Shown here one piece after another: positions 10,847-27,194 of a DNA stretch of 64,000 bases. The translations under genes and the position numbers were made by a program. Source of the DNA: Verrucomicrobiales bacterium (GTDB taxonomy: Bacteria; Verrucomicrobiota; Verrucomicrobiia; Verrucomicrobiales; DEV007); contig PAAG01000002.1 of NCBI GenBank assembly GCA_002698785.1, forward strand, positions 22,601 through 86,600. The letters are read 5' to 3'. Numbering within the stretch: position 1 is the stretch's first letter; each line of letters opens with the position of its first letter. Under the pieces are notes generated by a model that worked only from the letters and a program-made list of their open reading frames with translations, was not told the DNA's origin and made no database searches.

Positions 10847-10857
10847 GTGTCTTCACG

Positions 10858-12258: not shown

Positions 12259-12259
12259 A

Positions 12260-15133
12260 TCAATCGAGGTAAAGAAATTCAGTCGAAGCCATCAGCACGT
12301 GGGCCAGCTCTCCGCAGGCTTCCTTGATGTCTTCCGGGTATTCGCTCGCTCCACTCAGCGCAGCGATTAATCCAAGGGAACGCTGCATCTCAGCATCCGA
12401 AGGAGCACGTCCGAGAAGCGAGCGATACAGCCATTTCACTTCCTCTCCGGGAAGCTTCGCATTTTCCATGGCCAGCACTCCGAGCTTCTCCGCCTGCTCG
12501 TGCACGAAGTCGCTGTTTAAAAGGTAGAGTGCCTGCGTAGGAACCGTGGTTTGGTTGCGGCGTCCGGATACCACATCCGGATTCGCTGCGTCGAAAACGG
12601 CGAGCTCTGTAGCCGCGTTGTTTCGGGCCACCGGCAGATACACAGTTCGCTTCTGGTATTTGGAAAAGGAGAACGGTTTGTCCAGATCGATCCCGAAAGG
12701 AGTCGCGGTCGCCTTGCCCTTCTCTCGGTCCAGCTCACCTGACAGGGCCAGAACGCTGTCCCGGATTTCTTCCGCAGTCAGTCGTCGGCGATTCTGTTTT
12801 CCGAAAAGCTGATTGGTGGGATCCACCTTCACCAGCTCGTCGGTTGGGTTACAGCTCAATCGGTAGGCATGACTTAGCACGAGCTCGCGCACCATCGTTT
12901 TCACCGACCCATTGTTCGCACGGAACTCAGCGGCGAGGTAGTCGAGCAGTTCAGGATGAGTTGGTCCTGTTCCCAATCGCCCAAAGTTGTCGACCGTTGC
13001 CACAATGCCCCGCCCGAAAAGGTGGTGCCAGATTCGATTGACCATGACGCGGTCTAACAAAGCATTCTCCTCACTCACCATCCACTCGGCGAGTTCCATG
13101 CGCCCGCTATCACCTTCTGCGATCTGGGGAGCGTCACCAGTGTGAAGGACTTGGAGGAAATTGCGCGGGATCTTGTCCCCGAGTTGCCCGACCTCACCGC
13201 GCACTCGCAAATTGATGTCGTCCGAGTTCTTCGCATCGCGTGGAGCCATCGCGACCTCCGCGTCTTTCAGCTCTCCGATGAGGCGATTCAGCTCTTTCTT
13301 CAGATCGCCCTCACTCATGAGGTGGAGGGCATCTTTGTCCCCGCCCATTCCTGATAGCGCTTTCGCTTCTCGCTCGATGTCATTCACCGGAATGAACTGC
13401 ACCGCATCGACGATCACAAAGCTGCCTTCGGTGCCTGTCGTCTCGACGATGACCTGGCACTTCCCGCCCTTTTCAAAGGTGAAACGTCCCACTGGTTCGA
13501 ACAGGCCGCCGATCGACGGCTTCTTTGTTTCATCGAGATACACGCGGTGATCACCATCGCGAGCCTCGACTTTGATTGGCACATTCTTCGCCCGGTTCGC
13601 CTCGGCACTGTAGGCGAGACGAATCTCATACTCCCCGCTCTCAGGGAGGCTTCCTCGGAAAATGGCGCAGTTCGTTCCTTTGCCTGGAGCATCGTTTTCA
13701 TCCACGATATATCCGTCGCCGAAACGATTGCCGGACAGACTCGACTTTCGCCACGGCCCAATCAACTCGGCATCGGCTTCGTCATAAATCACGCCCGCGA
13801 GAGGTAGATTATCGAGAGACATCTTGCCTCCCGCTTTCTTCATGAAACTCTTCTCCACCGTCAGTCGCATCGCCAGCTCGAGGCGCTCAACCGTTGCCTT
13901 GGTCTTTTCGGCTTCCGGTCCCTCCATCGGCAATGGGCGCTCGATCCAGCTCGCGACATTTACACATCCGTTCCGCGTGCCGGTGACCACTTCCGTAGAA
14001 CGGAAAATCCCGGCCATCGCATAGTAGTCCTCCTGCGAAACAGGATCGAACTTGTGATCGTGACAACGGGCACACCCGAGTGTCAGGCCGAGAAACGCGC
14101 GACCGGTCGTGTCCAGCTGCTCGTCTGCCGTGTCGAGCCAGAGCTTTTCCTTGTCGCGCTCGGTAAGCATCTTCGGACCGAGTGCAAGAAAAGTCGACGC
14201 AACCAACTGTTCGCGTCGCTCTTCTGGACTTGCCGCATGCATCAGGTCGCCAGCCAGCTGCATCCTGACAAAATCATAGTAGGACACATCTTTGTTGAAG
14301 GCATCGATCACCCAGTTCCGATACCGCCATGCCTGGTAGAAAGTGAAGTTTCGGTCGCCACCGTTCGAGTCAGCATACCGAGCAACGTCCAGCCAGTGCC
14401 GCCCCCACTTTTCGCCAAAGCCCGGACGCGACAGAAGATCGTCCACGATCGCCGCAAGCGATTCGCGTGAGGGATCGGCGACAAAAGCATCTACTTCCTC
14501 AGGAGTCGGAGGAAGCCCGATCAAATCGAAATACAAACGTCGCAGAAGCACAGCGGGCTCCGCATCCGAGGTAGGTTTCACCCCTGCCTCTTCCAGGTTC
14601 GCCAAGATGAATCGATCCGTCTCCGTATCGGCCCATTCCGAGTTCGGCACAGATGGCACTTCTGCTTTTTCGATAGGACGGTAGGCCCAGCCTTGGCGAG
14701 CAGCCTCAAAATCAATCTCATCCTGCACCGCACCAGCGAGCGCTTCGTCACGTGGGTCTGGAGCACCCATGGCGATCCAATCTTCCAGGATCTTCACCTC
14801 TTCGTCCGAGAGCTTGCTCTTCGGTGGCATCTGCAAATCCTCATCAGCATATCGGATCGAGTGAATGAACAGACTCCCATCGACATCCCCCGGAACGATG
14901 GATGCGCCGGCGTCACCACCGATCGCCCAGCCCGCTTTGCGATCCAGCCACAGGCCGCCCTTTTGCTTCCCCGCTTCCTCCGAGTGGCACTCGTAGCAAC
15001 GCTGTACCAGGATGGGTCGGACTTTGTTCTCAAAATAGGCGAAGCCTTCTGTTCCTTCCGAGGGAACGATTGTCAGAAAGCCTGTAGCTACGGCCAGGCC
15101 AAAGCCGGAAGCGATGCGGGGGAAATTCGCCAT
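12260..15133 (-). CDS. PSCyt1/DUF1549/DUF1553 (PSD1-type) protein
   Basis: [19 protein letters not shown] (planctomycete cytochrome c motif), [16 protein letters not shown] (DUF1549) and [18 protein letters not shown] (DUF1553). Its stop lies 1 nt before the DUF1501 start. Confidence 0.9.
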
Positions 15134-15229
15134 TCTACAAGAATAAGTCGATTGCCCGGTATTTCGGACAGCTTAACCGTGGCGCGATCGGGCCAGACGG
15201 TGTCCAATCGAAACGCCCAAAATACCGGT

Positions 15230-15290
15230 CATTTTCGGTGCATTTTCCCTCATTCTGCTCATTTCGGGACATTTTCGCCTCATCCATCCC
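15230..15290. repeat. Six helically phased CAT(T)TTC direct repeats
   Basis: The repeats are CATTTTCGGTG / CATTTTCCCT / CATTCTGCT / CATTTCGGGA / CATTTTCGCCT / CATCCATCCC. They start at 15230, 15241, 15251, 15260, 15270 and 15281, a spacing of 9-11 bp. Confidence 0.7.
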
Positions 15291-15309
15291 CCGCCAAATC
15301 AGGGGCTCT

Positions 15310-15360
15310 GGTGAAAATGATGGGAAAAGATGGGGTTTTCCGTTTTCCATCATTTTGGTG
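15310..15360. repeat. Imperfect inverted repeat built from the same GAAAATG/CATTTTC unit
   Basis: GGTGAAAATGATGGGAAAAG (15310-15329) faces CGTTTTCCATCATTTTGGTG (15341-15360). The core AAAATGATGG(G)AAAA is complementary. Confidence 0.65.
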
Positions 15361-15731
15361 TGGGCGGCGGATATTTTGAGGAGAAAGGAAACTCAGGGAG
15401 AAGATTGCATGCCTCCATTCTAACGGAACACCAATAAAATGTCGAGCTTAGGAGGCATCCACTGGGATTTCGCGGACTGGGAATGATTTTGAGATGGAAT
15501 GGGGCATCGCGCTCAGCGCAGGGCAGATGTCCAAATTCTTTTGGACCTCTTGATTGCTATTTTGCATCTCTCTCCATAGCACGACATCGTCCTGAAATCA
15601 CCTTCACCCCTTAGTTTGTGTTATTTAGAGATTTACACATCAATCCTCCAAGAGACAACTTGGCTATTGTTTCCTGTTACGTTTCCCTATATTGATATTC
15701 GGTTCCTATAATACTACTGTTATCCCTAAAA

Positions 15732-16130
15732 ATGGCCTACCAGATTCACATCATCCCGCGCGAAGACCTTCAGACTGCCGATACTTGGAAATTCGTTGTC
15801 GACGAGTGTGAGGGCGTTCGTTTGGCGTCTGGTGAAGGCAGCGTTGTCGTTAATCCGAAAACCGGAGAGGAGATCCGTATTGGTGGTTCCTCTACTGATG
15901 CAGAGATTCATTTCCCTGATGAGGATGCTTGGTATCCAGCTCTATTCTGGAGACGCGGACGCGCATCGATCAATGCCAGGTTTGAGATGGGGGACGAGAC
16001 AGATCCCGCATGGCGCGTTGTCAGTTGGCTTGCACAGCGTCTTGACGGTGAGATCCAAGGTGACGAAGGCGAGGTGTTTGATTGTGTGACCGGTCAGATG
16101 GTCCGTGATCATTTGGGACGGGACGTGTGA
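15732..16130 (+). CDS. Hypothetical small acidic protein
   Basis: 132-aa ORF with no recognised motif. It is the first ORF of the same-strand run. Confidence 0.55.
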   Translation: MAYQIHIIPREDLQTADTWKFVVDECEGVRLASGEGSVVVNPKTGEEIRIGGSSTDAEIHFPDEDAWYPALFWRRGRASINARFEMGDETDPAWRVVSWLAQRLDGEIQGDEGEVFDCVTGQMVRDHLGRDV

Positions 16131-16264
16131 CCAAAACCGGGGAGAAAAAGCCGGAGATGGCAAGCCCGATCCCGCCGCGAGTTGATTGACTTCTGAAATA
16201 GGAATCCTTACTCTGAGTTCGAGATCGCACTCCTACATGGGCGGGGATCTCTTGAACGTTCGGC
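16131..16264 (+). repeat. Inter-ORF repeat copy 1 (about 134 nt)
   Basis: Starts right after the TGA. Its 5' part (CCAAAACCGGGGAGAAAAAGCCGGAGATGGCAAGCCC) is homologous to 16665-16702. It contains internal GGAATCCTTA and ends in CTTGAACGTTCGGC, 13 nt before ATG 16278. Confidence 0.7.
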
Positions 16265-16277
16265 TGAAAAAATACTC

Positions 16278-16724
16278 ATGAGACTATTCTGTATCGCGAT
16301 CACCGTTTACTGTTCGAGTTTGTTGCTCGCTGACGAAAAGGCTGTCCCCCACTCCTCACATAGGAATTCCAGTCCACTCAGTAATTCGGGCATCGGAGCC
16401 GTAGTCGACAAAGATCGACAGACCGGTAATTTGAAGGTTTTTAAAACGGTGGAAGGCGGCCCAGCCGCAAAAGCTGGATTGCTTGCTAATGATGAGATCG
16501 TAGCGATCGACTCGGAGGATACGACGGAAATGAGTTTGGAAGTAGCAGTCAGATTGTTGCGAGGAAAACAGGGCACCGCAGTAAGACTTGCCGTAAAGCG
16601 CTCTGGTGTGCCCGATATCATTCAATACAAAGTTACTCGCCAAATTCTCCCTCAACCGTCGCCAGCAAAACCGGTGCCGAACAAGCCAGCGATGGCAAGC
16701 CCTAGACCGTTTCGTCCCGGTTGA
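16278..16724 (+). CDS. Secreted PDZ-domain protein
   Basis: Signal-like N-terminus and a PDZ core (GIGAVVDKDRQTGNLKVFKTVEGGPAAKAGLLANDEIVAIDSEDT...LRGKQGTAVRLAVKR). The last ~18 codons lie inside repeat copy 2. Confidence 0.75.
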   Translation: MRLFCIAITVYCSSLLLADEKAVPHSSHRNSSPLSNSGIGAVVDKDRQTGNLKVFKTVEGGPAAKAGLLANDEIVAIDSEDTTEMSLEVAVRLLRGKQGTAVRLAVKRSGVPDIIQYKVTRQILPQPSPAKPVPNKPAMASPRPFRPG

Positions 16725-16800
16725 GTGTTGTATTTCGAATCCTTAATTTGCTAACGAAGTTGCGGTCTCGTCCCGGGCTGCCATGCTTCGAACGTTCGGC
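16665..16800 (+). repeat. Inter-ORF repeat copy 2, the best attC-like candidate (core 16676-16800, 125 nt)
   Basis: GCCGAAC (16676-16682) is the exact reverse complement of GTTCGGC (16794-16800). The inner stem pairs GCGATGGCAAGCCC (16689-16702) with GGGCTGCCATGC (16775-16786), leaving two single bulged bases. Further inner pairs are AGACCG/CGGTCT and TTTCGT/ACGAAG. Confidence 0.6.
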
Positions 16801-16806
16801 TCAGCA

Positions 16807-17151
16807 ATGGCTCTACTAAAGACAGTTCACTGGCGATTTCGGTGCCCCAAGCAAATTGATGGAGTTGCTAAAGATTTCGTCGAGTGGATCAGCCGAGATA
16901 TTGATCCTTCAAATCTCGATTTTGATTCTGCATTTGTCGAATTCCACGATCCGTGGTTTGCATGGCGAAGAATGATCGCTACGCGGTATGGTATTGCATC
17001 GAATTACAGATCGCCGAACGGAGTTCCTGCTAAACCGGCTTGGAATCGGAAGCTTCGTAAGCGGAATAGCGATCTGACACCTGAGCAGCTTGTCGAGCGG
17101 GTCTTCGAGAGAGTCGTTGTTCGTCTGAGGCGCACCAAACTGTCCCACTGA
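16807..17151 (+). CDS. Hypothetical protein
   Basis: ORF with no recognised domain. The start is placed at ATG 16807, just after the repeat end; the tracked start 16783 lies inside the repeat. Confidence 0.5.
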   Translation: MALLKTVHWRFRCPKQIDGVAKDFVEWISRDIDPSNLDFDSAFVEFHDPWFAWRRMIATRYGIASNYRSPNGVPAKPAWNRKLRKRNSDLTPEQLVERVFERVVVRLRRTKLSH

Positions 17152-17283
17152 ACAAGTCGAATAATGTTCTGGAGAGAAATCGCCTACCCACTCCGACTCG
17201 ACGCTCTTTGACAATTAGAATCCTCACCCTCGGCTCCAAGGCTCGCCTCCCGGTTGGTGATCCCTAAGCTTTGAACGTTCGGC
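17147..17283 (+). repeat. Inter-ORF repeat copy 3 (about 137 nt)
   Basis: ACTGAAC-AAG overlaps the stop codon (compare GCCGAAC-AAG in copy 2). CTGGAGAGAAATCGCC resembles CCGGGGAGAAAAAGCC of copy 1. It contains internal AGAATCCTCA and ends in CTTTGAACGTTCGGC, 12 nt before ATG 17296. Confidence 0.65.
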
Positions 17284-17295
17284 AAAACAATTTCC

Positions 17296-18003
17296 ATGTA
17301 TACCCCTCCAAACTTCAGGATCGACGACCGAGAGGTAATTCGTCAATTCATCAGCGAAAACTCGTTGGGTCTGTTGTTGTCGGTCCGGGATGGAGTCATC
17401 CATGACACCCACACTCCATTCCTTATTTCCGATTGTGGACAGCATCTCCTCGGACACATAGCCAGAGCCAACGCCCACTGGCATGACTGGGAAGAGGACT
17501 CAACTGCGAAGGTTATTTTTACTGGTCCGCACGCCTACGTTTCCCCGCGTTACTACGAATCAGAATTCGCGGTGCCCACCTGGAACTACACAGCCGTTTC
17601 CATTTCGGGCCGAATCGCTTTGATCGAAAAAACCGAAGCCAAACTCGATTTTCTGGATAGGCTCACGTCTGCCAACGAGTCCTCCGATAGCCCATGGACT
17701 CTGGATCGATCCGACGAACGATATCTCAACCTGCTTTCCGGTATCGTAGTTTTTTCGGTATCGATCGATTCGATTGAGGCTTCATTCAAACTGAACCAGA
17801 ATAAGAGTATTGAAGATCAACGGAAGGTGGTCGCATCGTTGACTGAGACAGGATGTCCGTTTGACCACGCTGTCGCGTTGCTTATGGAGAACAACATAGC
17901 CGATGCCGAGCAGGACGGTGGCGGGGAATCGGCAGCCCGCACCAAATCAGATCTGAAGAGTGGCGACAAACCTCAACCAGAATCGGAGGGAGGCGCCCGG
18001 TAG
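17296..18003 (+). CDS. PaiB-family FMN-binding putative transcriptional regulator
   Basis: MYTPPNFRIDDREVIRQFISENSLGLLLS, YVSPRYY and FKLNQNK blocks are typical of PaiB. The ~30-aa low-complexity C-terminal tail extends into a degenerate repeat copy. Confidence 0.8.
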   Translation: MYTPPNFRIDDREVIRQFISENSLGLLLSVRDGVIHDTHTPFLISDCGQHLLGHIARANAHWHDWEEDSTAKVIFTGPHAYVSPRYYESEFAVPTWNYTAVSISGRIALIEKTEAKLDFLDRLTSANESSDSPWTLDRSDERYLNLLSGIVVFSVSIDSIEASFKLNQNKSIEDQRKVVASLTETGCPFDHAVALLMENNIADAEQDGGGESAARTKSDLKSGDKPQPESEGGAR

Positions 18004-18035
18004 CGGGTGCCGGGCCTCAAACGTTCTGCAACAAT

Positions 18036-18479
18036 ATGCGAAATGCGGTCGCAATATCGATCATTCTAATCAGCGCGGTCGGGCTCTTCTTTGCCCTGGG
18101 TTGGTTGGGCATGCTTCCTCGAAGCCGGGTTATCGTTGTTCCTGATGGTTTCACCGGAGAGGTTGTCATCGCGTATCACCCAACCATTGGAAAGTCATTC
18201 AACGGCCGCCCTTTCAATTTTGGGACGACACGCATCATTATTCCCGAGGATGGAAATCTGATCATCTCTGATTGGGACGAGTTCGGAGGAATGAGTTCTG
18301 AAAAGTATATCAGGCAAGATGGGACCATTCTCGGTGGGACTCACCCATGGGCCGGAACTTCCAAAATCAAGACGAAAGGAACAATGGGGCGGAATCCGGG
18401 GGATGATGAACCTTTTCTAAAATCAGCAATGTTGGATGACGATTCTGTCATGTATTCGGGCTTCACCGTCCTAAAATAA
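18036..18479 (+). CDS. Hypothetical membrane-anchored protein
   Basis: Single N-terminal TM helix and no recognised domain. AAACGTTCTGC (18019-18029) lies 6 nt upstream of the ATG. Confidence 0.5.
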   Translation: MRNAVAISIILISAVGLFFALGWLGMLPRSRVIVVPDGFTGEVVIAYHPTIGKSFNGRPFNFGTTRIIIPEDGNLIISDWDEFGGMSSEKYIRQDGTILGGTHPWAGTSKIKTKGTMGRNPGDDEPFLKSAMLDDDSVMYSGFTVLK

Positions 18480-18588
18480 CTCGAGCCCAACAAACCTCTC
18501 TACCCCGCGCCAAGTCAAAAACGCGCTCCTGCAAACATTCGATGAAAGAAACTGGCTGATCCCCCGGTAGCGTTTCTCATACCTTCGA

Positions 18589-19263
18589 ATGAGAGCACGC
18601 TTTCCATACCGGATATTACGTCAAGGCCCCGTCATTTGGAATCGTGCGACTTTACTCTCAAGTATTTTGCTGGTTCTACTCTCGGTCACTGGCTGCACCA
18701 CGACACCGCCTCCCGCAAAGAATGCGCAAGCGATCGATCTCGAGCCTGATGATCACGGTCGCTACATGAAATGCGGTTGGTATTGCGGAGCGCCGCCTAT
18801 GAGCGTCTCCGCGACCTCGACCTTTCATGACGGGATCTACTCCTACTCTGCCGAGAACCTCCATGATTGTCGAAAGGACACTGCGTGGGTGGAAGGCATC
18901 GGTGGAGACGGCCACGGCGAACGGATCATATTCACGTTTGATATGACAGAGCGGACGCCAGGAAGCCATGAGATTGGTGTGGGGAGCGTATCCATCATCA
19001 ACGGTTTCGCGAGGTCGAAGAAACAGTGGGAGGCCAATTCGCGGGTGAAGACGTTCAAGATCTATTTCGACGGCGAGTATCTCGATACGGTCGAGCTGGA
19101 GGATACCCGAGAACCCCAGCGGGTGCAGTTACCCAAAATGGCGTTCATCCCCGGCAAGAAGCACGAGATAGCATTCGAAATCGACACGATCTATCCCGGC
19201 ACGAATTTCTACTACACTGCGGTGTCCGATTTTCTCTTCGATGGGTTTGGGGTGAGGCATTGA
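18589..19263 (+). CDS. Lipoprotein, possibly with NADase-type/discoidin-like glycan-binding domain
   Basis: Lipobox LLSVTGC. YSAENLHDCRKDTAWVEGIGGDGHGERIIFTF...IINGFARSKKQWEANSRVKTFKIYFDG resembles, from memory, the galactose-binding-like domain pattern. Confidence 0.5.
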   Translation: MRARFPYRILRQGPVIWNRATLLSSILLVLLSVTGCTTTPPPAKNAQAIDLEPDDHGRYMKCGWYCGAPPMSVSATSTFHDGIYSYSAENLHDCRKDTAWVEGIGGDGHGERIIFTFDMTERTPGSHEIGVGSVSIINGFARSKKQWEANSRVKTFKIYFDGEYLDTVELEDTREPQRVQLPKMAFIPGKKHEIAFEIDTIYPGTNFYYTAVSDFLFDGFGVRH

Positions 19264-19406
19264 GAAATGTGATTCTATGTAGTCACACACTCCGCCACCA
19301 GGTGGATGCAGCTAACTCAACGCTCCGAACATTTGCTGAAAGTCGATTCAAGCACACCGCAACATGTTGACGGGACTCTCGGGTAATCCACTTTGTCTGA
19401 GCAACT

Positions 19407-19856
19407 ATGGAAGGATATGACGATGACTATCCCACTTGTGCCGACACTTTCGCCACGCTGAGGTTCTATCATGAGGCGTGCACTCCCGACGCTGTGACCG
19501 AGGCGCTGGGTATCTCGCCATCGAGGACGCAGGCTAAGGGGCAAAACACCGTAAATGGGAAACAAGTACAACGACGTGTCTCGGGCTGGTTCCTCTGTTC
19601 GAGAGACGAGGTTCAATCGAAAGACATCCGGCGCCATATCGACTGGATCCTCGATCAAGTTTCTGAGTTGAGGAATGAGTTTGTTCGCCTGAACCAAGAA
19701 GGCTGGCGCTCTGATATCTCATGCTATTGGCTGAGCCATGGGCACGGAGGTCCCATGCTATCCCCTTCTCAGATGGAATCTCTAGCGAAGCTGAACCTGA
19801 CGTGCGGTTTCGACGTGTATTTTGAAGAGGATAGTGCTGAGGCCCCTGCTTCTTGA
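19407..19856 (+). CDS. DUF4279-family protein
   Basis: CADTFATLRFYHEACTPDAVTEALGISPSRTQAKG matches the DUF4279 N-terminal pattern as I recall it. Confidence 0.55.
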   Translation: MEGYDDDYPTCADTFATLRFYHEACTPDAVTEALGISPSRTQAKGQNTVNGKQVQRRVSGWFLCSRDEVQSKDIRRHIDWILDQVSELRNEFVRLNQEGWRSDISCYWLSHGHGGPMLSPSQMESLAKLNLTCGFDVYFEEDSAEAPAS

Positions 19857-19952
19857 CGGTGTAATGTTCGTTATTTTACCGGCAGAGTTGTTTCTCAGGG
19901 CACTCGCTCGCTACCAGAAAAGGCGCTATTGTAGATATGAAATAAGCTGATC

Positions 19953-20243
19953 ATGTCTCCAGCGCTGTATCGATTCTTCGTCGCCGAACTTGGATCCCTT
20001 CTGGGTTTGATTTTCATGCCCAAGCATGGGTGCACCCTGTCATCCCCTCCGCTCGAAATTATGTTCTTGGGTATTTGCTTCATCCTGATTCCGTGGATGT
20101 GCTTACGACTCGATAATTCCAAACTCGCGTGGGGGCTCGCTGCATCGACATTGGTAATCACCGTCTTGCTCGGTACTGTTTACATCGAGGTCATTCACTG
20201 GGATCACTATCCCGAGCGCTTCCTGGCCGGGCAGCACCTGTAG
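19953..20243 (+). CDS. Hypothetical small membrane protein
   Basis: 96-aa ORF with 3 hydrophobic segments. Confidence 0.4.
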   Translation: MSPALYRFFVAELGSLLGLIFMPKHGCTLSSPPLEIMFLGICFILIPWMCLRLDNSKLAWGLAASTLVITVLLGTVYIEVIHWDHYPERFLAGQHL

Positions 20244-20452
20244 ACTCGACTGTGCAATCCATTTTGTCCCATGCCGAAAAAGACGATATGAGGCGAACAG
20301 TTGACTTCGACTTCGCGGATCACGTTAGTGAGCTTTCCTTATATCCTCGAACTAGCTATACTCCCCCGAAACATTCTCTTTTTCTTACATGATATTCCGG
20401 TGAGTTGCGGTCCGCGGCGCATCTCAATACGGCAGCTTTTCATATCAAATAA

Positions 20453-21772
20453 ATGTCCCATCGCAGCATCGCCATTTTCGTCTTCTGCGTCAGCGGGGTC
20501 GCTTTGCTGGCCGTAACGCTATCTACCTCGAAATGGCTGAAGAGCCGACCTAGGTGGGAGCTTTCGGCGGTAAATTCTGAGAAAGGTGTTGAGATCTCCG
20601 TGTTTCTCAAAGGAAAGAACCAACCAGTTCACTCTACGATGCTGGAAGGTCGAGAAATCGCCCATGATGTCCACCGCGTTACCGTCAATGAACTTCCACC
20701 CGGAATCGGAGAATCGACATTTGTCGACGAAACCATTCCTCCAGGACGATGGGTTCTGACTATCGATGGTGTGGAGTTAGACATTATGGAGTCGCGTTTC
20801 TTGGTCGAAACCGGAGAGGCCAAGACTATTGACATAGATGACACCGCTGAAGGAAACCAGTCGAAGAGAGGTAGCATTTACCCGCCACCAGAGAGGATTG
20901 GAGACTGGACCACGATTCGAGAGCGATTCGAGAGTTGGGATTTTGTCGAATTTCTCTATGCAGGGGAAGCTGCTGATGGAGGTTCCCATGGGTTTCTTTT
21001 CACGACCCCCGATGGAGCCGAAATCGAAATTTCGGTGGTGTGCAGTACTTGGTGGACGGAAGAAGATGCAAGAAGACGGCACCAACCAATCTATCTCTCC
21101 TGTGAAGGAAAAGAGTATTTGGTTCCTGAAAATGGGGAGATCGAAAATACGCTTCTCGAAATCCTAGACATGGCAGCCGCTAGCCTGACTGGTGAGGGGC
21201 GAAGGAATCCGAAATACATTCGACGCCTGCGAGAAACCATCGCGACCCGCACAATTCCCGACGATACCTGGCCTTACGACAAGCTCGATGCCGACGATGA
21301 TCTCGGTGACTGGATCGAAACTCAGGATCGCCTTAAGAGCTGGGAAACGGTCGAACTGCAAGATTGGGGCAATCTTGGCGATCTCATCTCGACCCGATTT
21401 CAGTTTCGATCTTCAACCGGAGATGAGTTTGGCATTGTGGTAGCTTCTCCCGATTGGCTGCCGGATGAAGAAGAAATCTCAGCCAACTCGGAACCTGAGC
21501 AACCGACTGATCCCTTTGCTGAGGATTATGATGAAGAAATAACTCGGATGCTGATACTCGTCCATTTTGGAAGAAAGCTCTTTCTAGTGGAGGAAGGGAG
21601 CGATATCGAAGCTGAGTTGCTGGGAATGCTCGACAGGGCTGCGGTGAATTCGAAAGGAGTGGGCATTTCACATCCAAAATACGTTCAGCGACTGCGAGAG
21701 GTGGTTGCGACACGCGTGCCGAGCAGCTACATGCATTGGCCGATGACTGATGAGGAGGTAGAGGGAGAATAG
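20453..21772 (+). CDS. Hypothetical membrane-anchored protein with internal domain duplication
   Basis: N-terminal TM helix. Two homologous ~120-140 aa modules occupy residues ~149-268 and ~284-423, each running from GDW...SW to HPKY(I/V)(R/Q)RLRE..ATR. Confidence 0.6.
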   Translation: MSHRSIAIFVFCVSGVALLAVTLSTSKWLKSRPRWELSAVNSEKGVEISVFLKGKNQPVHSTMLEGREIAHDVHRVTVNELPPGIGESTFVDETIPPGRWVLTIDGVELDIMESRFLVETGEAKTIDIDDTAEGNQSKRGSIYPPPERIGDWTTIRERFESWDFVEFLYAGEAADGGSHGFLFTTPDGAEIEISVVCSTWWTEEDARRRHQPIYLSCEGKEYLVPENGEIENTLLEILDMAAASLTGEGRRNPKYIRRLRETIATRTIPDDTWPYDKLDADDDLGDWIETQDRLKSWETVELQDWGNLGDLISTRFQFRSSTGDEFGIVVASPDWLPDEEEISANSEPEQPTDPFAEDYDEEITRMLILVHFGRKLFLVEEGSDIEAELLGMLDRAAVNSKGVGISHPKYVQRLREVVATRVPSSYMHWPMTDEEVEGE

Positions 21773-21799
21773 CTCTGTGTCTCTTGTTTCTAAATTACT

Positions 21800-22095
21800 A
21801 TGTACCACCTTACATTCGACACTGTCCCGACGATCGAGAATGATGAATTCTCGACCTTAGACTGAGCAATCGTAGTCGCCTGGATTCCCTCGGAAGATGC
21901 GATTGATTTAGATGACGCTGAGAGGTTGGCCAGAGCTCACATCGAGAAACACCAGTGGTTTATCAAATCCCTCGATGAGGCATCCATAATTGACGAGGAG
22001 ATCTACGAACCTCGTGATGAGCATCGTGAATTTTTCGAGACAGCTTTGTCGGGTGAACAAGAATTGGTCTTCTATACCTTTCCTGATTCGGATTA
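21800..22095 (+). pseudogene. Small-protein gene interrupted by an in-frame TGA
   Basis: ATG 21800 reads MYHLTFDTVPTIENDEFSTLD, then TGA (21863-21865), then continues in frame as AIVVAWIPSEDAIDLDDAERLARAHIEKHQWFIKSLDE...ELVFYTFPDSD to TAG 22093-22095. Confidence 0.55.
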
Positions 22096-22183
22096 GTTTC
22101 CCTTTTTGGGGAGAGGCATTTTAATGATTACCCTTCCCACCATTCGGAGAGCAGTTTAGGGAGGGATTGAAGTAGATTCTCGA

Positions 22184-22485
22184 TTACGGTTTCAACCTTT
22201 CAAGAATTCGGTCGGGGTCTTGGCGGAGGTTCAAGACAGCGTGAACTACCACCCGCGATGTTTCTACGACATAGAAAATTCCATAATCGTAAAACCCGGC
22301 ACCAGTTTTCGGCGAAGGTTCTCGTGGAAGCGTTTCCCTATCTCAGGAAACTTTTGGATATCTTAAAGCGCTCGGTAAAATGTTGAAGAAAACTTCTCTG
22401 CGCGGGCCGGTTCTTCCTCAAAAAGCGAGACGTATATGGTGAGGGCATCCTTCTCTGCCCCTTCCAAGAGGATTAGCTCTCCCAT
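22184..22485 (-). pseudogene. Decayed RelE/ParE-family toxin gene
   Basis: The ATG at 22485 overlaps the antitoxin 3' end. There is an in-frame TAA at 22363-22365 and a frameshift near 22290-22300. The shifted frame restores GFYDYGIFYVVETSRVVVHAVLNLRQDPDRILERLKP, homologous to the intact toxin at 26895-27194. Confidence 0.7.
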
Positions 22486-22712
22486 GAAGCTCCTGTTTCC
22501 CGCTGCAATCGCTTCTTCGCTTCGGTCCAGCTTGAGCCGGTATCGCGATCCTGTCGATACGCTTCCATCCGCTCATTGAGCACTTCCAGGATCGCTCGTT
22601 CCTGATCTCCAGAAACGGTGGGAGCATTCAAGTCGTCCAAAAGTTCCTCAGCCATGAGCGTTTTCTCCTCCTGACTCAGTTTTTGCACATCTGGGAGAGT
22701 TTCCAAGATCAT
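22473..22712 (-). CDS. Addiction-module antitoxin (putative addiction module component family)
   Basis: The 79-aa sequence LSQEEKTLMAEELLDDL...ILEVLNERMEAYRQD is a paralogue of 26689-26898. It sits upstream of the toxin remnant. Confidence 0.7.
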   Translation of the reverse strand: MILETLPDVQKLSQEEKTLMAEELLDDLNAPTVSGDQERAILEVLNERMEAYRQDRDTGSSWTEAKKRLQRETGASWES

Positions 22713-22984: not shown

Positions 22985-23917
22985 TCAGGAAAAGTGACCG
23001 GGGACGTTCTGGTAGCCGTTGGAGCCGCTGATGAAACGGCGGGCGACGGCCTGGTATTCGTCGATGAGGTCGACGTCTTCGGCGGAGGCTTCGTGGATGT
23101 CGAGGTCGTAGCGTTCGCGTCGGAAAGGAACTATGTAGGCCATGGGCGTTCCGCGCGGAAGGATGATCTGACCTTCCTCCATCTGAAAAAGGGCGTTGAT
23201 GTGGGTGGTGTGGTGCTGATCGGAATGGACGATCCCAGGCATCGCGGCCCAGAGGTGATCGAAATGGTAGTAGCAGGGCAGGACGCGAATGGAGTAGCCG
23301 GGCGATGTGCGACAATACCAGGGACTGACAAATTTGACCTCGGCTTTGAAGCCTTCGTTAGGCATGGTCTCGTATTGCTTTCGGGGATGGCTGAGGAGGG
23401 CGAATTCCTCGTTTGGAGTCTGCCAGGAAAAGGTGCCATCTTTCCGAAAGGTGATGGAGTAGTCGCACCAGAGGGGTAGCACGTAGCCAGTGCGAAGGAA
23501 GTCGATGATGGCGGGACACTGTTTGACCGTAGAGTTTTGCCGAATTTTTAACTCTTTCGGGAATGTCTGGAAATCGGTGACGCGGTTGTAGTGGGTGTCC
23601 ATTCCCCGGAACCATCTGGGGATGTATTTCGTGGCGGGTGCAGGTGGCGCCAGCTTGAGGAGGCTTCGGTGCTTGTGCTCGACGAAGAATTCGATACGTG
23701 CCCGGTCTTCGTCATTTTCTCCAGATACAGTCGGACTGGGCACGGGACAGAAATCGTCGAGGTCTCTCCCCTGTTCGATCAGTAGACGGGAAGCGAGGCA
23801 TTGCAGCTCATCAGGACTGAGCGTGTCCCTTAGCGTTTTGAGGTGGGTCTCGACGGAGGATTCCATCGGCAACGGTATGGCCGTGGTGCCCAAGGGTGGG
23901 CAGGAAAATCGTGTCAA
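22985..23917 (-). CDS. Hypothetical protein (orphan; possible start at 23866)
   Basis: 310-aa ORF. The conserved-looking block STVKQCPAIIDFLRTGYVLPLWCDY...PGIVHSDQHHTTHINALF cannot be assigned confidently. It is the only minus-strand long ORF between the TA remnant and lysA. Confidence 0.55.
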   Translation of the reverse strand: MTRFSCPPLGTTAIPLPMESSVETHLKTLRDTLSPDELQCLASRLLIEQGRDLDDFCPVPSPTVSGENDEDRARIEFFVEHKHRSLLKLAPPAPATKYIPRWFRGMDTHYNRVTDFQTFPKELKIRQNSTVKQCPAIIDFLRTGYVLPLWCDYSITFRKDGTFSWQTPNEEFALLSHPRKQYETMPNEGFKAEVKFVSPWYCRTSPGYSIRVLPCYYHFDHLWAAMPGIVHSDQHHTTHINALFQMEEGQIILPRGTPMAYIVPFRRERYDLDIHEASAEDVDLIDEYQAVARRFISGSNGYQNVPGHFS

Positions 23918-24061: not shown

Positions 24062-25303
24062 ATGTCATCCCTTTCCCCCCAGCGTGCCGATCAGCTTCGT
24101 GAAATCGCGAGCGAGTATGGAACTCCGACGTATGTCTATGATGCGGAGGTCATCCGAAAGCAGTTCCGTCGGCTGAAGAAGTTCGACATTGTTCGCTTCG
24201 CCCAGAAGGCTTGCTCGAACACGCATATTCTGCGCCTGCTTCGGGAGGAGGGTGCGGTGGTGGACTGTGTATCGGCCGGGGAGCTGGACCGTGCGCTTGC
24301 TGCGGGATTCGAGCCGGGTGCGGATCCGGCGCAGATTGTTTTCACGGCAGATATCATCACGCCAGACGCGATTGAGCGCGTGGTGGAGCTGGGTGTGCCT
24401 GTGAATGCGGGCTCTCCTGATATGCTGACGCAGATCGGTGAAGCGAATCCGGGACATCCGGTCTGGCTGCGGATCAATCCAGGATTTGGCCACGGTCACA
24501 GTAAGAAGACGAACACGGGCGGTGAATCGAGCAAGCACGGCATCTGGCACGAGAATATCCACGAAGCGCTGGAGCTGATCGACAAATACAATCTGAAGCT
24601 CGTCGGTATCCATATGCACATCGGATCGGGCGCGGAGATCGATCACCTCTCCCGCGTGTGCGATGCGATGGTGGAGCAGGTGAAGACGGCAGGACGCGAC
24701 ATCGAGGCGATCTCTGGCGGAGGTGGCCTTTCTATCCCCTACTCTCCGAATGATCCGGAGGTGGATGTGGATGCGTATTTTGATAAGTGGGACGAAGCAC
24801 GTCGCCACGTGGAAGAGATCGTGGGACACAAGGTCCATCTCGAGCTGGAGCCGGGGCGTTTCCTCGCGGCGCAGGCGGGATCTCTGATCGCTGAGGTGCG
24901 TGGACAAAAGCAGACGGGCTCGAATCGCTATGTGCTGGTGGACGCGGGTTTCAACGACTTGATGCGGCCGGTGATGTATGGCTCTCGCCACGAGATGGAG
25001 TTGCTGCCTCATGATGGTCGTGACATGGATGCCCCGACTCCGACGGTGGTGGCGGGTCCGCTCTGTGAAAGCGGTGATATTTTTACCCAGCTCCCGGGTG
25101 GAGATGTGGACGCGCGTCCCCTGCCCCCGACGGAAACCGGTGACCTGCTGGTCTTCAAAGATGCGGGTGCCTATGGCTCGGTGATGGCGAGTAACTACAA
25201 CTCACGCCCCCTGGCTGCCGAAGTGATGATCGATGGAGATGACATCCGCCTGATCCGCCGACGCCAGACGATCGAAGATCTACTGGCGCTGGAGGAGGTG
25301 TAG
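24062..25303 (+). CDS. lysA: Diaminopimelate decarboxylase
   Basis: PTYVYDAEVIRKQF, FAQKACSN (PLP lysine), HMHIGSG, EPGRFLAAQAG and GPLCESGD blocks; 413 aa. Confidence 0.92.
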   Translation: MSSLSPQRADQLREIASEYGTPTYVYDAEVIRKQFRRLKKFDIVRFAQKACSNTHILRLLREEGAVVDCVSAGELDRALAAGFEPGADPAQIVFTADIITPDAIERVVELGVPVNAGSPDMLTQIGEANPGHPVWLRINPGFGHGHSKKTNTGGESSKHGIWHENIHEALELIDKYNLKLVGIHMHIGSGAEIDHLSRVCDAMVEQVKTAGRDIEAISGGGGLSIPYSPNDPEVDVDAYFDKWDEARRHVEEIVGHKVHLELEPGRFLAAQAGSLIAEVRGQKQTGSNRYVLVDAGFNDLMRPVMYGSRHEMELLPHDGRDMDAPTPTVVAGPLCESGDIFTQLPGGDVDARPLPPTETGDLLVFKDAGAYGSVMASNYNSRPLAAEVMIDGDDIRLIRRRQTIEDLLALEEV

Positions 25304-26688: not shown

Positions 26689-26898
26689 ATGACGGTGGAA
26701 GAAGTCAATCAACTCCCGACTGAAGAAAAGGTTCTTTTGATGGAGGCTCTCTGGGCTGATCTGCGGGAGAGATTTGAAGCCGCCGACATTCCCCAAGAGC
26801 ACAGAGAGATTCTCGACGCGAGGAGATCAAAAGTAGAGGCGGGTGAAATGAAGATCTTGGCGTGGGACGATGTGAAGTCCACCATCGGTCGCCGATGA
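26689..26898 (+). CDS. Addiction-module antitoxin
   Basis: MTVEEVNQLPTEEKVLLMEALWADL... Its stop overlaps the toxin start (ATGA at 26895-26898). Confidence 0.75.
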   Translation: MTVEEVNQLPTEEKVLLMEALWADLRERFEAADIPQEHREILDARRSKVEAGEMKILAWDDVKSTIGRR

Positions 26899-27194
26899 AT
26901 CGCATCGAGATTTCGGAGGGAGCTCTTCAAGACCTTAATGACGGGTTTCTCTTTTATGAGGTCCAAGAGGCAGGTCTTGGTGATTACTTCGTTGCTTGCC
27001 TTCGGGCCGATATAGAGCGGCTTAAGATAGCAGCCGGCACACATAGAATCGTTTATCACGATTACTTTCATGTGGTCAGCAAAGTGTTCCCTTATGGGAT
27101 TTATTACACATTCGCCGAGAAAACTGCGACCGTCTGGGCGGTGCTCGATCTCCGTCGAGATCCGAAGTGGATTCTAGACCAGCTCGACAAGTAG
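26895..27194 (+). CDS. RelE/ParE-family toxin
   Basis: 99 aa. FPYGIYYTFAEKTATVWAVLDLRRDP is a typical ParE/RelE C-terminus. It is translationally coupled to the antitoxin. Confidence 0.8.
   Translation: MNRIEISEGALQDLNDGFLFYEVQEAGLGDYFVACLRADIERLKIAAGTHRIVYHDYFHVVSKVFPYGIYYTFAEKTATVWAVLDLRRDPKWILDQLDK

What the first reader, a model, noticed from the sequence alone, without database searches (positions are those of the whole stretch)
15732..22712. Integron-like array of small unrelated ORFs separated by a conserved boundary repeat; no integrase in window
Ten consecutive plus-strand ORFs of 96-439 aa have unrelated predicted functions: orphan, PDZ, orphan, PaiB, membrane-anchored, lipoprotein, DUF4279, small membrane, duplicated-domain orphan and a stop-interrupted small gene. 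An inverted toxin-antitoxin module follows them.

The first three gaps contain a homologous 125-137 nt element with conserved ends and a variable centre. Each copy ends in GAACGTTCGGC (16254-16264, 16790-16800, 17273-17283), 6-13 nt before the next ATG. An exact 11-mer is expected about 0.03 times in 2 x 64 kb under uniform composition.

Degenerate 3' motifs recur in later gaps: AAACGTTCTGC at 18019, AAACATTCGA at 18533, GAACATTTGCTG at 19327, AATGTTCGTT at 19863 and AATGTTCGC at 22754.

Several features fit an integron cassette array (CALIN type). These are the ORF-repeat-ORF organisation, the repeat length and the GTTCGGC end, which matches the attC R' consensus GTTRRRY at 6 of 7 positions. 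TA modules and decayed cassettes also fit. I am not aware of well-characterised arrays in Verrucomicrobiota. Alternative explanations are a lineage-specific REP-like intergenic repeat or a shared 5' regulatory element.
Basis: partly seen in the sequence, partly recalled or inferred. Interest (0 to 1): 0.8.

Follow-up and report, generated by a model that had tools for sequence, protein, structure and literature searches.

The report
Integron cassette array without its integrase
This stretch of a marine Verrucomicrobiales genome is a real integron gene-cassette array that has no integrase nearby and whose recombination sites are partly decayed, which is an ordinary kind of element in a phylum where few have been looked at closely.

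Summary

**Test in the window.** I built a covariance model from 44 repeat copies taken only from other metagenomic loci. It finds exactly four significant sites in the 64-kb window, all on the + strand between the first five ORFs:
- 16141-16264
- 16676-16800
- 17156-17283
- 17905-18029

**Why the repeat family is attC:**
- It has inverse core sites, GNNNAAC at one end and GTTNNNC at the other.
- It has an inner stem with compensatory changes in 9 of 9 pairs.
- It has bulged bases on the 5' arm.
- Each site's 5' core matches the previous site's 3' core in 49 of 59 adjacent pairs. This is the signature of crossover at G|TT.
- It sits beside true integron integrases (TIGR02249, 348 bits) in three loci, one from a Verrucomicrobiaceae genome.

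**Cassette turnover.** A strain about 95% identical carries different cassettes. Two breakpoints fall at attC 3' core sites.

**Limits.**
- The window holds no integrase gene or pseudogene, so this is a CALIN.
- Only attC2 looks intact. attC4 still folds, and attC1 and attC3 have decayed.
- ORF6 to ORF10 have no demonstrable attC.

**Novelty.** Integrons in Verrucomicrobia are already reported, so this is a new member of a known kind.

The parts
15134..15731 (.). Non-coding region between the PSCyt/PSD1 gene and the first cassette. The part up to about 15470 is conserved in a related species. The rest is specific to this array. No attI or attC was recognised. A perfect TATAAT lies at 15707-15712.
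   Evidence: Sequence. Homology to L046 runs to 15345 by BLAST and is patchy to about 15470. There is no model hit. The possible R'-like CTGTTACGTTTCCC at 15678-15691 does not match the R'' of attC1.
15732..16130 (+). Cassette ORF1, 132 aa, no Pfam family.
   Evidence: A 50% identical homologue (P0005) is a cassette flanked by attC sites in another array, L017. Another homologue follows a PT-HINT polymorphic toxin gene.
16141..16264 (+). attC1, degenerate. R'' is GGAGAAA, so the invariant C is lost. R' is GTTCGGC. The inner stem is mostly broken.
   Evidence: Model R1 gives 38.9 bits, E 3.1e-8, and flags 4 of the 9 modelled inner-stem (L-box) pairs plus one R-box pair (R'' position 7 A opposite the first G of R') as non-standard. 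DNA fold is -12.6 kcal/mol against the family's -22.4 +/- 3.4.
16278..16724 (+). Cassette ORF2, a PDZ-domain protein with a signal-peptide-like N-terminus. Its last 16 codons lie inside attC2.
   Evidence: Pfam PDZ_6, E 4.4e-13. The overlap with 16676-16800 is seen.
16676..16800 (+). attC2, intact. R'' GCCGAAC is the exact complement of R' GTTCGGC. The long imperfect hairpin is preserved.
   Evidence: R1 gives 68.7 bits, E 1.6e-15, with no non-standard pairs. Fold is -20.5 kcal/mol with 30 arm-to-arm pairs. Homology with strain L052 ends inside its R' at 16798.
16807..17151 (+). Cassette ORF3, 114 aa, no Pfam family. Absent from strain L052.
17147..17283 (+). attC3, decayed. R'' is either ACTGAAC at 17147 or GTCGAAT at 17156. 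R' is GTTCGGC. No hairpin forms.
   Evidence: R1 gives 25.0 bits, E 7.6e-5. Fold is -8.8 kcal/mol with 0 arm-to-arm pairs. Its best relative is L017:1199-1324, at 68% identity.
17296..18003 (+). Cassette ORF4, a PaiB-like FMN-binding protein. The last part of its C-terminal tail (from about residue 204) is read from attC4.
   Evidence: Pfam FMN_bind_2, E 1.2e-45, covers residues 1-158 only. Residues 204-235 match the translation of an attC in L044.
17905..18029 (+). attC4. R'' is GCCGAGC and R' is GTTCTGC. It still folds arm to arm, but two family-invariant positions are changed.
   Evidence: R1 gives 35.1 bits, E 2.6e-7. Fold is -25.7 kcal/mol with 26 arm-to-arm pairs. It is 71% identical to L044:1095-1219.
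18036..18479 (+). Cassette ORF5, 147 aa, membrane-anchored, no Pfam family. Absent from strain L052.
18485..18542 (+). Short attC remnant. An R''-like GCCCAAC lies at 18485-18491. The R' is mutated to CATTCGA at 18536-18542. It marks the 5' boundary of the ORF6 cassette.
   Evidence: Homology with L052 resumes at 18535. In L052 the junction is preceded by a different, 126-nt attC scoring 47.4 bits. The window copy is not detected by R1.
18589..19263 (+). ORF6, a lipoprotein with a NADase_transloc (F5/8 type C) domain. It is shared with L052 and L046. No attC is recognisable at its 3' side.
   Evidence: Pfam E 2.5e-28..
19407..21772 (+). ORF7 (DUF4279, 19407-19856), ORF8 (19953-20243) and ORF9 (20453-21772). 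These are co-directional genes of the variable island with no demonstrable attC. A marginal collapsed site lies at 20273-20317.
   Evidence: R1's best hit here has E 0.78. An ORF9 homologue is the first gene of the array in L046.
21791..22096 (+). ORF10, a small gene interrupted by an in-frame TGA. It is intact (98 aa) in strain L052.
   Evidence: Sequence..
22130..22712 (-). Inverted toxin-antitoxin module. The antitoxin at 22473-22712 is intact. The ParE/RelE-like toxin downstream of it is broken by stops.
   Evidence: Pfam Unstab_antitox, E 9e-10. My own reading of the - strand. The same antitoxin with a ParE partner is a cassette in the complete integron L050.

Best explanation
**What it is.** Window 15.7-22.7 kb is a chromosomal integron cassette array without an integron integrase, that is a CALIN. 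It lies in a marine Verrucomicrobiales genome.

**How a cassette is built.** Each of the first four or five units is a gene cassette: a short ORF followed by an attC recombination site of about 125 nt.

**How cassettes move (established integron biology).**
- One strand of attC folds into an imperfect hairpin.
- An IntI tyrosine recombinase cuts it at G|TT in the 3' core site.
- Cassettes are thereby excised as circles and inserted one after another in the same orientation.

**Present state.**
- The recombinase and the primary insertion site are not at this locus.
- Any further movement would need an integrase acting in trans, or homologous recombination with another array.
- One site (attC2) is intact and one (attC4) still folds.
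- Two sites (attC1, attC3) and the remnant before ORF6 have lost the stem or the G of G|TT.
- The proximal cassettes are therefore decaying.
- The distal genes (ORF6 to ORF10 and the broken toxin-antitoxin pair) are either much older cassettes or other island genes.

**Shown and inferred.**
- Shown: membership of the repeats in an attC family, the link of that family to IntI, the position of the crossover, and cassette turnover at this locus.
- Inferred: the catalytic mechanism, taken from what is known of integrons, and the current lack of mobility.
For: 1. **Independent model test.** Model R1 was built from 44 sites outside the window. It hits only 16676-16800 (68.7 bits), 16141-16264 (38.9), 17905-18029 (35.1) and 17156-17283 (25.0). 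All are on the + strand and all lie between consecutive ORFs. The next best hit has E 0.78.
2. **Conserved hairpin.** In a MAFFT alignment not fitted to any structure, 9 of 9 inner-stem pairs show compensatory changes. That stem is 89.6% paired; the whole structure is 83.7% paired, against about 35% when the partners are slid. The 5' arm carries 1-2 extra bases in 38 of 44 sites, with a conserved bulged G in 35 of 44.
3. **Crossover signature.** R'' of a site complements R' of the preceding site at all three variable positions in 49 of 59 adjacent pairs. It complements its own R' in only 3 of 59. In the window the matches are 3/3, 2/3 and 3/3.
4. **Integrase link.**
   - L033/L050 carry an IntI scoring 347.8 bits on TIGR02249 (cut-off 265), divergent from 15 family attC sites.
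   - L049, from GCA_022548915.1 (Verrucomicrobiaceae bacterium E54 / Haloferula), has an IntI next to 8 family sites.
5. **Turnover at this locus.**
   - Strain L052 (flanks about 95% identical) shares 10852-16798 and 18535-19270.
   - Between them it has two other cassettes, including an SMI1_KNR4 gene.
   - The 124-aa cassette obeys the chain rule: it begins TTCGCT and its attC has R'' AGCGAAC. The SMI1_KNR4 cassette follows a degenerate R' and cannot be checked.
   -.
6. **Related species.** L046 has a different gene set at the same position.
7. **Independent acquisition.** Three of the four window attCs (attC1, attC3, attC4) are closer to sites in other arrays (68-75%) than to any other window attC (55-66%). 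An ORF1 homologue is a cassette in another array.
8. **No integrase here.** tblastn finds no IntI or remnant in the window down to E 10.
Against: - IntegronFinder's generic attC model could not be run, so attC status rests on a family-specific model and on structural and comparative criteria.
- Three of the four sites score in the lower tail of the family (25-39 bits, against 60-107 for typical members). Two of them do not fold.
- No attC is detectable for ORF6 to ORF10. Two breakpoints between strains are not at attC sites: 19270, just after the ORF6 stop, and 21692, inside ORF9.
- The related species L046 has no family attC at all at this locus.
- At the ORF6 junction both strains carry ACATT rather than ACGTT although the upstream attCs differ. 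That fits homologous exchange as well as IntI action.
- Among contigs carrying the identical PaiB protein the gene order is invariant.
- Whether the genome encodes IntI elsewhere is unknown.
Confidence: 0.9

Rival explanations
1. The array came from integron activity but is now a fixed, inert genomic island. On this view its attC sites are fossils. The strain differences arose by ordinary homologous recombination between arrays or by deletion, not by current IntI activity.
For: - Two of four attCs have lost the hairpin, and the R' before ORF6 has lost the G.
- There is no intI in 64 kb.
- Gene order is invariant among 21 contigs carrying the identical PaiB.
- Some breakpoints are not at attC sites.
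- L046 has no family attC at the locus.
Against: - attC2 is fully intact and attC4 folds.
- Two of the four breakpoints fall within a few bases of G|TT.
- One of the two replacement cassettes in L052 obeys the chain rule.
- This rival differs from the main explanation only in the present-day activity of the array, not in what the array is.
Confidence: 0.45
2. A lineage-specific REP- or MITE-like intergenic repeat that is scattered through the genome and unrelated to site-specific recombination.
For: The repeat is intergenic, about 125-137 nt long, partly palindromic and conserved at its ends.
Against: - All four copies in 64 kb lie in one co-directional array and on one strand.
- Over 100 copies in other loci are likewise arranged in one-strand arrays separated by single small ORFs.
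- The repeat overlaps the 3' ends of ORFs.
- The chain rule holds in 49 of 59 adjacent pairs.
- The family is associated with IntI.
Confidence: 0.02
3. A shared promoter or 5' leader that co-regulates the downstream genes.
For: The conserved 3' end lies 6-13 nt before each start codon. TTGAC-like and TA-rich hexamers can be picked out by eye in two copies.
Against: - In the strain comparison the element stays with the upstream ORF, and divergence starts at its last bases.
- There is no Rfam match.
- There is no excess of promoter-like sites.
- The spacing of the hexamers is not conserved in the third copy.
- The compensatory changes preserve a DNA hairpin between the two ends of the element, not a leader structure.
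Confidence: 0.03
4. A polyimmunity or acquired interbacterial-defence island: an array of orphan immunity genes against polymorphic toxins, assembled by some other recombinase, as in the Bacteroidales rAID-1 system.
For: - An ORF1 homologue follows a PT-HINT toxin gene.
- Related arrays carry SMI1_KNR4, Imm7, DUF2314 and ankyrin genes.
- DUF2314 is listed as an immunity family found in heterogeneous polyimmunity loci in PMC3482391.
Against: - Only 2 of 61 cassette proteins of this attC family hit immunity families. Most are orphans, and the rest are GNAT, glyoxalase, hydrolase and toxin-antitoxin genes.
- PDZ, PaiB and DUF4279 are not known immunity families.
- The repeat is an attC, and the associated recombinase is IntI.
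- This is therefore at most a statement about some of the cargo, not a different system.
Confidence: 0.1

Closest known systems
[quoted passage not shown] 2016 (PMC4889954)
   Same: - At least two attC sites, here four within 1.9 kb, all on one strand.
- No intI nearby.
- Small size. That paper reports that 83% of CALIN have fewer than six sites.
- Cassettes of unknown function.
- No neighbouring intI pseudogene, as for 95% of CALIN in that paper.
   Different: - The sites were recognised with a family-specific model, not the IntegronFinder attC model.
- Most of the sites are structurally decayed.
- The array continues into genes with no attC.
Complete chromosomal integrons of Haloferula-like Verrucomicrobiaceae (L049 from GCA_022548915.1; L033/L050 from marine metagenomes)
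   Same: - The same attC family, of about 125-133 nt, with GNNNAAC-AAG-NC at one end and ACGTTNNNC at the other.
- The same ORF-then-attC organisation and cassette sizes of about 0.3-0.6 kb.
- Toxin-antitoxin cassettes, including Unstab_antitox with ParE.
   Different: - Those loci have a divergent intI (TIGR02249) and, in L033, an attI-type junction: GTTCTTC matches the first attC's R'' GAAGAAC.
- The window has neither.
- The window's host is a different, lower-GC Verrucomicrobiales lineage.
Sedentary chromosomal integrons of Vibrio (VCR arrays); comparison from my own knowledge
   Same: - Long attC sites of about 120-130 nt that resemble each other in sequence.
- Toxin-antitoxin cassettes.
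- Mostly orphan ORFs.
- ORFs that run into the attC.
   Different: - Vibrio arrays hold tens to hundreds of cassettes, with attC identity above 80% and an adjacent intIA.
- Here there are four recognisable sites with 55-66% identity and no integrase.
Bacteroidales rAID-1 islands and 'heterogeneous polyimmunity loci' (rAID-1 from my own knowledge; Zhang et al. 2012, PMC3482391)
   Same: Arrays of small unrelated co-directional genes. Related arrays include some immunity families (SMI1_KNR4, Imm7, DUF2314).
   Different: - The boundary repeat here is an attC tied to IntI, not to a XerD-like recombinase.
- Immunity families are a small minority of the cargo.

Membership tests
Integron cassette array / CALIN | Two or more attC sites clustered less than 4 kb apart on one strand | tested here: met
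   There are four hits of model R1 within 1.9 kb, all on the + strand, with E from 1.6e-15 to 7.6e-5. The model was built without any window sequence. IntegronFinder's own attC model was not available.
Integron cassette array / CALIN | attC has inverse core sites, R'' (RYYYAAC) and R' (GTTRRRY), and is 57-141 nt long | tested here: met
   The family consensus is GNNNAAC ... GTTNNNC, with AAC and GTT almost invariant (A5 and C7 44/44, A6 43/44; GTT 44/44). Window sites are 124-137 nt long. attC2 has GCCGAAC with GTTCGGC. attC1, attC3 and attC4 each carry one or two mutations in R''.
Integron cassette array / CALIN | Inner L''/L' repeats form an imperfect stem, with extrahelical bases on the R''-L'' arm | tested here: inconclusive
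   For the family this is met. Nine of 9 pairs show compensatory changes and 89.6% of cells are paired. The 5' arm has 1-2 extra bases in 38 of 44 sites. In the window it is met for attC2, mostly for attC4, and not for attC1 or attC3.
Integron cassette array / CALIN | Cassette boundary at G|TT of R', so that a cassette starts with the last six bases of a core site complementary to its own R'' | tested here: met
   The chain rule holds in 49 of 59 adjacent pairs, against 3 of 59 for a site's own R'. In the window the matches are 3/3, 2/3 and 3/3. Strain breakpoints fall at 16794-16798 and 18535-18538.
Integron cassette array / CALIN | The attC family is used by an integron integrase | tested here: met
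   The evidence is association only. The IntI in L033/L050 scores 347.8 bits on TIGR02249 (cut-off 265), and the IntI in L049 is named integron integrase by NCBI. Each lies next to family attC arrays on the opposite strand. Catalysis was not tested.
Integron cassette array / CALIN | No integron integrase gene near the array | tested here: met
   tblastn with the L033 IntI and with IntI1 finds nothing in the 64-kb window below E 0.49 and nothing near the array. The rest of the genome could not be searched.
Integron cassette array / CALIN | Cassettes can be excised as circles and re-inserted | not testable with these tools
   This needs outward PCR, split-read analysis or a recombination assay.
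Complete integron | intI, attI and the Pc promoter adjacent to the first cassette | tested here: not met
   There is no intI. No attI-like junction matches the R'' of attC1. The region upstream of ORF1 borders a PSCyt/PSD1 gene.
Sedentary chromosomal integron (Vibrio type) | A large array (more than about 20 cassettes) of highly similar attC sites, present throughout the species | tested here: not met
   There are four recognisable sites with 55-66% identity. Content differs between close strains.
REP / MITE-type dispersed repeat | Copies dispersed singly or in clusters in unrelated intergenic regions, in both orientations | tested here: not met
   There are no copies outside the array in 64 kb on either strand. 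More than 100 copies elsewhere all sit in one-strand arrays.

The most novel reading that the evidence does not exclude
The integrase-less array is still being remodelled. Two strains about 95% identical in the flanks differ by whole cassettes, with junctions at attC 3' core sites, although the locus has no intI or attI and most of its attCs look defective. That would mean one of two things in marine Verrucomicrobiales:
- an IntI acts in trans, encoded elsewhere in the genome or brought in by an incoming element;
- cassettes are swapped between arrays by an IntI-independent route.

A second strand of this reading is that part of the cargo serves as orphan immunity against polymorphic toxins. 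The candidates are the ORF1 family and the SMI1_KNR4, Imm7 and DUF2314 cassettes.
Probability: 0.25. Interest if true: 0.5.

Novelty: new member of a known kind. Interest (0 to 1): 0.35.

Why it matters
- **What it adds.** It is a worked example of an integron cassette array in an uncultivated marine Verrucomicrobiales lineage, and it defines the attC family used by Haloferula-like integrons.
- **Practical use.** That family model can be used to find cassettes and their hosts in ocean metagenomes.
- **Evolutionary picture.** The locus shows several stages side by side:
  - one intact attC;
  - decayed attCs;
  - ORFs that now read through attC sequence;
  - genes with no attC left.

  This illustrates how cassettes become ordinary chromosomal genes once the integrase is gone.
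- **Limits.** It does not change what is known about how integrons work. No antibiotic-resistance gene was identified among the array ORFs scanned against Pfam.

Tried and rejected
1. **Strict three-block pattern on GTDB genomes.** I scanned for TTGA..GAATCCT..GAACGTTCGGC and got 7 hits, about the number I estimated by hand for this pattern. I opened only L008, the one Verrucomicrobiales hit, and it lies inside a coding gene.
2. **Rfam, promoter and terminator scans of 15.0-23.5 kb.** Nothing was found.
3. **Folding the three repeats alone.** Only the second forms the expected hairpin. On its own this looked like evidence against attC. It became interpretable only once outside family members were found.
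4. **Window-type pattern on IMG/VR.** No hits.
5. **L042 recombinase.** It is a 29% identical tyrosine recombinase scoring 116.7 bits on TIGR02249, below the cut-off, so I did not count it as IntI.
6. **Model R1 on the related species L046.** No sites were found, so that array gives no attC evidence.
7. **Looking for the source MAG's own IntI.** I checked NCBI accessions of IntI homologues and found none with the MAS prefix.
8. **The idea that the array is mainly an immunity-gene bank.** A Pfam census of 61 cassette proteins gave only two immunity-family hits.
9. **Motifs at 19327, 19863 and 22754 as attC ends.** They are not above chance.
10. **IntI1 probe.** It served only to locate candidates, which were then confirmed with TIGR02249.

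Full report
**1. What is in the window**

- Between a PSCyt/PSD1 gene (12260-15133, - strand) and a 310-aa gene (22985-23917, - strand) lie nine intact + strand ORFs of 96-439 aa, one stop-interrupted small ORF and an inverted antitoxin gene.
It adds a NADase_transloc domain to the lipoprotein.
- GC falls to 0.48-0.52 here, against 0.56-0.59 in the flanks.
- GAACGTTCGGC occurs at 16254, 16790 and 17273, lying 13, 6 and 12 nt before the next ATG. A fourth copy at 48679 is unrelated and inside a gene.
- The first three intergenic elements resemble each other far beyond shuffled controls. The fourth gap shares the 3' block, and gaps 5 and 6 share a 25-nt block with each other.
- Folded alone, only the second element forms the long hairpin expected of an attC. 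The sequence of the window therefore could not settle the question by itself.

**2. Finding the family elsewhere**

- The window comes from a Verrucomicrobiales MAG. NCBI names its proteins MAS91591.1, MAS91596.1 and MAS91604.1.
- ORF1 has few homologues. One of them, P0005, lies on a 3.5-kb marine contig, L017. That contig is an array of six small + strand ORFs separated by 126-133-nt repeats (plus one 76-nt site). These begin ..CTAACAAGYC.. and end ..TTTGACGTTNNNC.
- Two of those repeats are plainly homologous to the window's third element. Unlike it, they have perfect stems that differ from each other by compensatory changes.
- A pattern taken from the L017 repeats found 3 IMG/VR loci and 24 metagenome loci.
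- A loose regular expression then showed about 100 sites in these loci, nearly all arranged as one-strand arrays with one small ORF between sites.

**3. The family is attC**

I aligned 44 sites from outside the window with MAFFT.

- *Stem.* RNAalifold predicts a stem of nine pairs between the two arms, and every pair shows compensatory changes. Columns 14 and 144, for example, read GC 14, CG 12, UA 8 and AU 7.
- *Pair counts.* With the outer core sites added, 83.7% of cells pair, against 63% in shuffles and 33-41% when partners are slid. The inner helix is 89.6% paired.
- *Bulges.* The 5' arm has one or two extra bases in 38 of 44 sites, including a bulged G in 35 of 44.
- *Core sites.* The ends are GNNNAAC and GTTNNNC, with AAC and GTT almost invariant (one A6 exception in 44). 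Positions 2-4 of the 5' core pair poorly with the same site's 3' core.
- *Chain rule.* Those positions do match the 3' core of the preceding site: all three match in 49 of 59 non-redundant adjacent pairs, against 3 of 59 for the site's own 3' core. Most exceptions span gaps over 0.9 kb, where a site was probably missed.
- *Meaning.* This is what crossover at G|TT produces. A cassette carries its own R'' and, at its 5' end, the last six bases of the core site it was joined to.

**4. Link to integron integrases**

- The ORF there scores 347.8 bits on TIGR02249 'integron integrase' (curated cut-off 265). It is divergent from an array of family attC sites.
- The junction upstream of the first cassette in L033 reads ACTGTTCTTC, which matches the first attC's R'' GAAGAAC.
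- The longer copy of this locus, L050, has 15 family sites, all on the strand opposite intI. It includes Unstab_antitox/ParE and RelB/PemK cassettes.
- The nearest named relatives of this IntI are the integron integrases of Haloferula sp. A504 (77% identity) and H. sargassicola (71%).
- The genome contig holding the Haloferula sp. A504 / Verrucomicrobiaceae bacterium E54 IntI (L049, GCA_022548915.1) has eight family sites next to it.

**5. Testing the window with an outside model**

Model R1 was built from the 44 outside sites. Run over the whole window with filters off, it gives four significant hits, all on the + strand.

| Site | Coordinates | Bits | E-value | R'' | R' | Fold (kcal/mol) | Arm pairs |
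|---|---|---|---|---|---|---|---|
| attC1 | 16141-16264 | 38.9 | 3.1e-8 | GGAGAAA | GTTCGGC | -12.6 | 22 (MFE; register not checked) |
| attC2 | 16676-16800 | 68.7 | 1.6e-15 | GCCGAAC | GTTCGGC | -20.5 | 30 |
| attC3 | 17156-17283 | 25.0 | 7.6e-5 | GTCGAAT or ACTGAAC | GTTCGGC | -8.8 | 0 |
| attC4 | 17905-18029 | 35.1 | 2.6e-7 | GCCGAGC | GTTCTGC | -25.7 | 26 |

- The next best hit has E 0.78. It is a possible collapsed site at 20273-20317.
- Typical family members score 60-107 bits, with a tail down to about 20.
- DNA folding of 31 family sites gives -22.4 +/- 3.4 kcal/mol on the strand written here.
- attC1 and attC4 have also lost family-invariant bases in or next to R''.
- attC4 lies inside the C-terminal extension of the PaiB-like ORF. 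Residues 204-235 of that ORF match the translation of an attC in L044.
- ORF2 likewise ends 48 nt inside attC2.
- Running into the attC is common in the family. Many cassette proteins end in tails such as ..EQGGAR.

**6. Cassette turnover at this very locus**

*Strain L052.* Its PSCyt protein is 98% identical and its flanks are about 95% identical at the nucleotide level.
- It shares window 10852-16798, 18535-19270 and 21692-22111 only.
- The first break is inside the R' of attC2. The window reads GAACGTTCGG|CTCAGC and L052 reads GAACGTTCGC|TTTAGA.
- Between these breaks L052 has a 124-aa cassette and an SMI1_KNR4 cassette, each with its own family attC. The 124-aa cassette begins TTCGCT and its attC has R'' AGCGAAC, as the chain rule predicts.
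- Because attC2 stays with ORF2 while ORF3 is replaced, the attC belongs to the upstream ORF. That is the canonical cassette polarity.

*Species L046.* Its PSCyt protein is 82% identical.
- It has the same flanks, but an ORF9 homologue comes first, followed by ankyrin, DUF2314, a 606-aa gene and the NADase_transloc gene.
- It has no family attC.

*More distant relative L047.* It lacks the island.

*Independent origins.* Three of the four window attCs (attC1, attC3, attC4) are closer to sites in other arrays (68-75%) than to any other window attC (55-66%). This argues for independent acquisition rather than local duplication.

**7. What is not shown**

- No IntI gene or remnant is present in the window, L046 or L052. 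The rest of the genome could not be searched.
- No attI-like junction matches attC1.
- ORF6 to ORF10 have no detectable attC.
- The breaks at 19270 and 21692 are not at attC sites.
- The motifs at 19327, 19863 and 22754 are at chance level.
- At the ORF6 junction both strains have ACATT although the upstream attCs differ. Homologous exchange between arrays explains that at least as well as IntI action.
- Contigs carrying the identical PaiB protein all show the same order.

**8. Cargo**

- Of 61 cassette proteins from arrays of this family, most have no Pfam match.
- The rest are typical of environmental cassettes: GNAT, glyoxalase, alpha/beta hydrolase, PIN, PemK and ParE toxins, TIR, IS110, and one each of Imm7 and SMI1_KNR4.
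- An ORF1 homologue follows a PT-HINT polymorphic toxin gene.
- DUF2314 is listed as an immunity family in PMC3482391.
- This hints that some cassettes are orphan immunity genes. It is not a general property of the family.

**9. Verdict**

- The finding is a true integron cassette array of CALIN type, with four attC sites in various states of decay and a distal part of uncertain origin.
- Integrons in Verrucomicrobia are already on record (PMC4889954; NCBI annotations). The finding is therefore a new member of a known kind.
- E-values from the model are rough because its calibration is shortened. The bit scores and the comparative evidence do not depend on them.

Noticed in passing
window 15225-15350: There is a cluster of CATTTTCG-like heptamers in both orientations (CATTTTCGGTG, CATTTTCCC, CATTTCGGG, CATTTTCGCC, then GAAAATGATGG and CCATCATTTTGG). 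It lies upstream of the PSCyt/PSD1 gene and is conserved in the related species L046. It looks like a regulator-binding array and is not part of the cassette array.
   Followed up: partly
L014:1-4984: A 60% identical homologue of ORF1 (P0004) sits directly after a 1293-aa protein with a Pretoxin-HINT domain and a 247-aa ORF, with overlapping stops and starts. This is the layout of a polymorphic toxin followed by immunity genes, so the ORF1 family may be an immunity protein.
   Followed up: partly
window 16676-16724 and 17905-18003; cassette proteins from L017, L027, L041 and others: Many cassette ORFs of this attC family have no stop codon of their own. They read into the attC and acquire similar C-terminal tails such as ..(N/A)EQGGAR and ..EQAGDGDAYQRP. 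ORF2 and ORF4 of the window do the same.
   Followed up: partly
L033:2024-3412 and homologues P0133-P0252: The integron integrases linked to this attC family, and most of the 120 listed environmental homologues, are about 440-490 aa long. That is about 140 aa longer at the N-terminus than IntI1 (337 aa). Part of the extension looks like a second copy of the N-terminal SAM-like motif.
   Followed up: no
Alignment A3, column 16 (for example window 16691, the G of CAGCGATGG): The conserved bulged base of the inner stem is a G on the strand that carries the ORFs, in 35 of 44 sites. As far as I recall, class 1 and Vibrio attC sites carry the extrahelical G and T on the opposite (bottom) strand. Which strand recombines in this family is therefore worth testing.
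   Followed up: no
L019:6774-6904, L020:4707-4837, L021:460-590: Three IMG/VR contigs of 29-46 kb, predicted as viral, each carry one identical family attC site scoring 64 bits. I did not check whether these are phages carrying a cassette or misclassified bacterial DNA.
   Followed up: no
window 26689-27194: A second Unstab_antitox gene with an overlapping 99-aa partner lies 4 kb beyond the array, on the + strand, between a cupin gene and an ECF sigma/FecR pair. No attC was detected near it.
   Followed up: no
window 9464-10783 and 24062-25303: Two Orn/DAP/Arg decarboxylase-family genes lie on either side of the variable island. NCBI names the second one diaminopimelate decarboxylase. In the more distant relative L047 the whole 15-27 kb segment between the PSCyt gene and the FecR gene is missing.
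   Followed up: partly
L049:2277-3452: An IS91-family transposase (Y2_Tnp) is inserted within the cassette array of the Verrucomicrobiaceae E54 / Haloferula integron. IS110-family transposases also occupy cassette positions in other arrays of this family.
   Followed up: no
window 22130-22470, - strand: The ParE/RelE-like toxin partner of the antitoxin at 22473-22712 is broken by a frameshift and stops, so the antitoxin is an orphan.
   Followed up: partly
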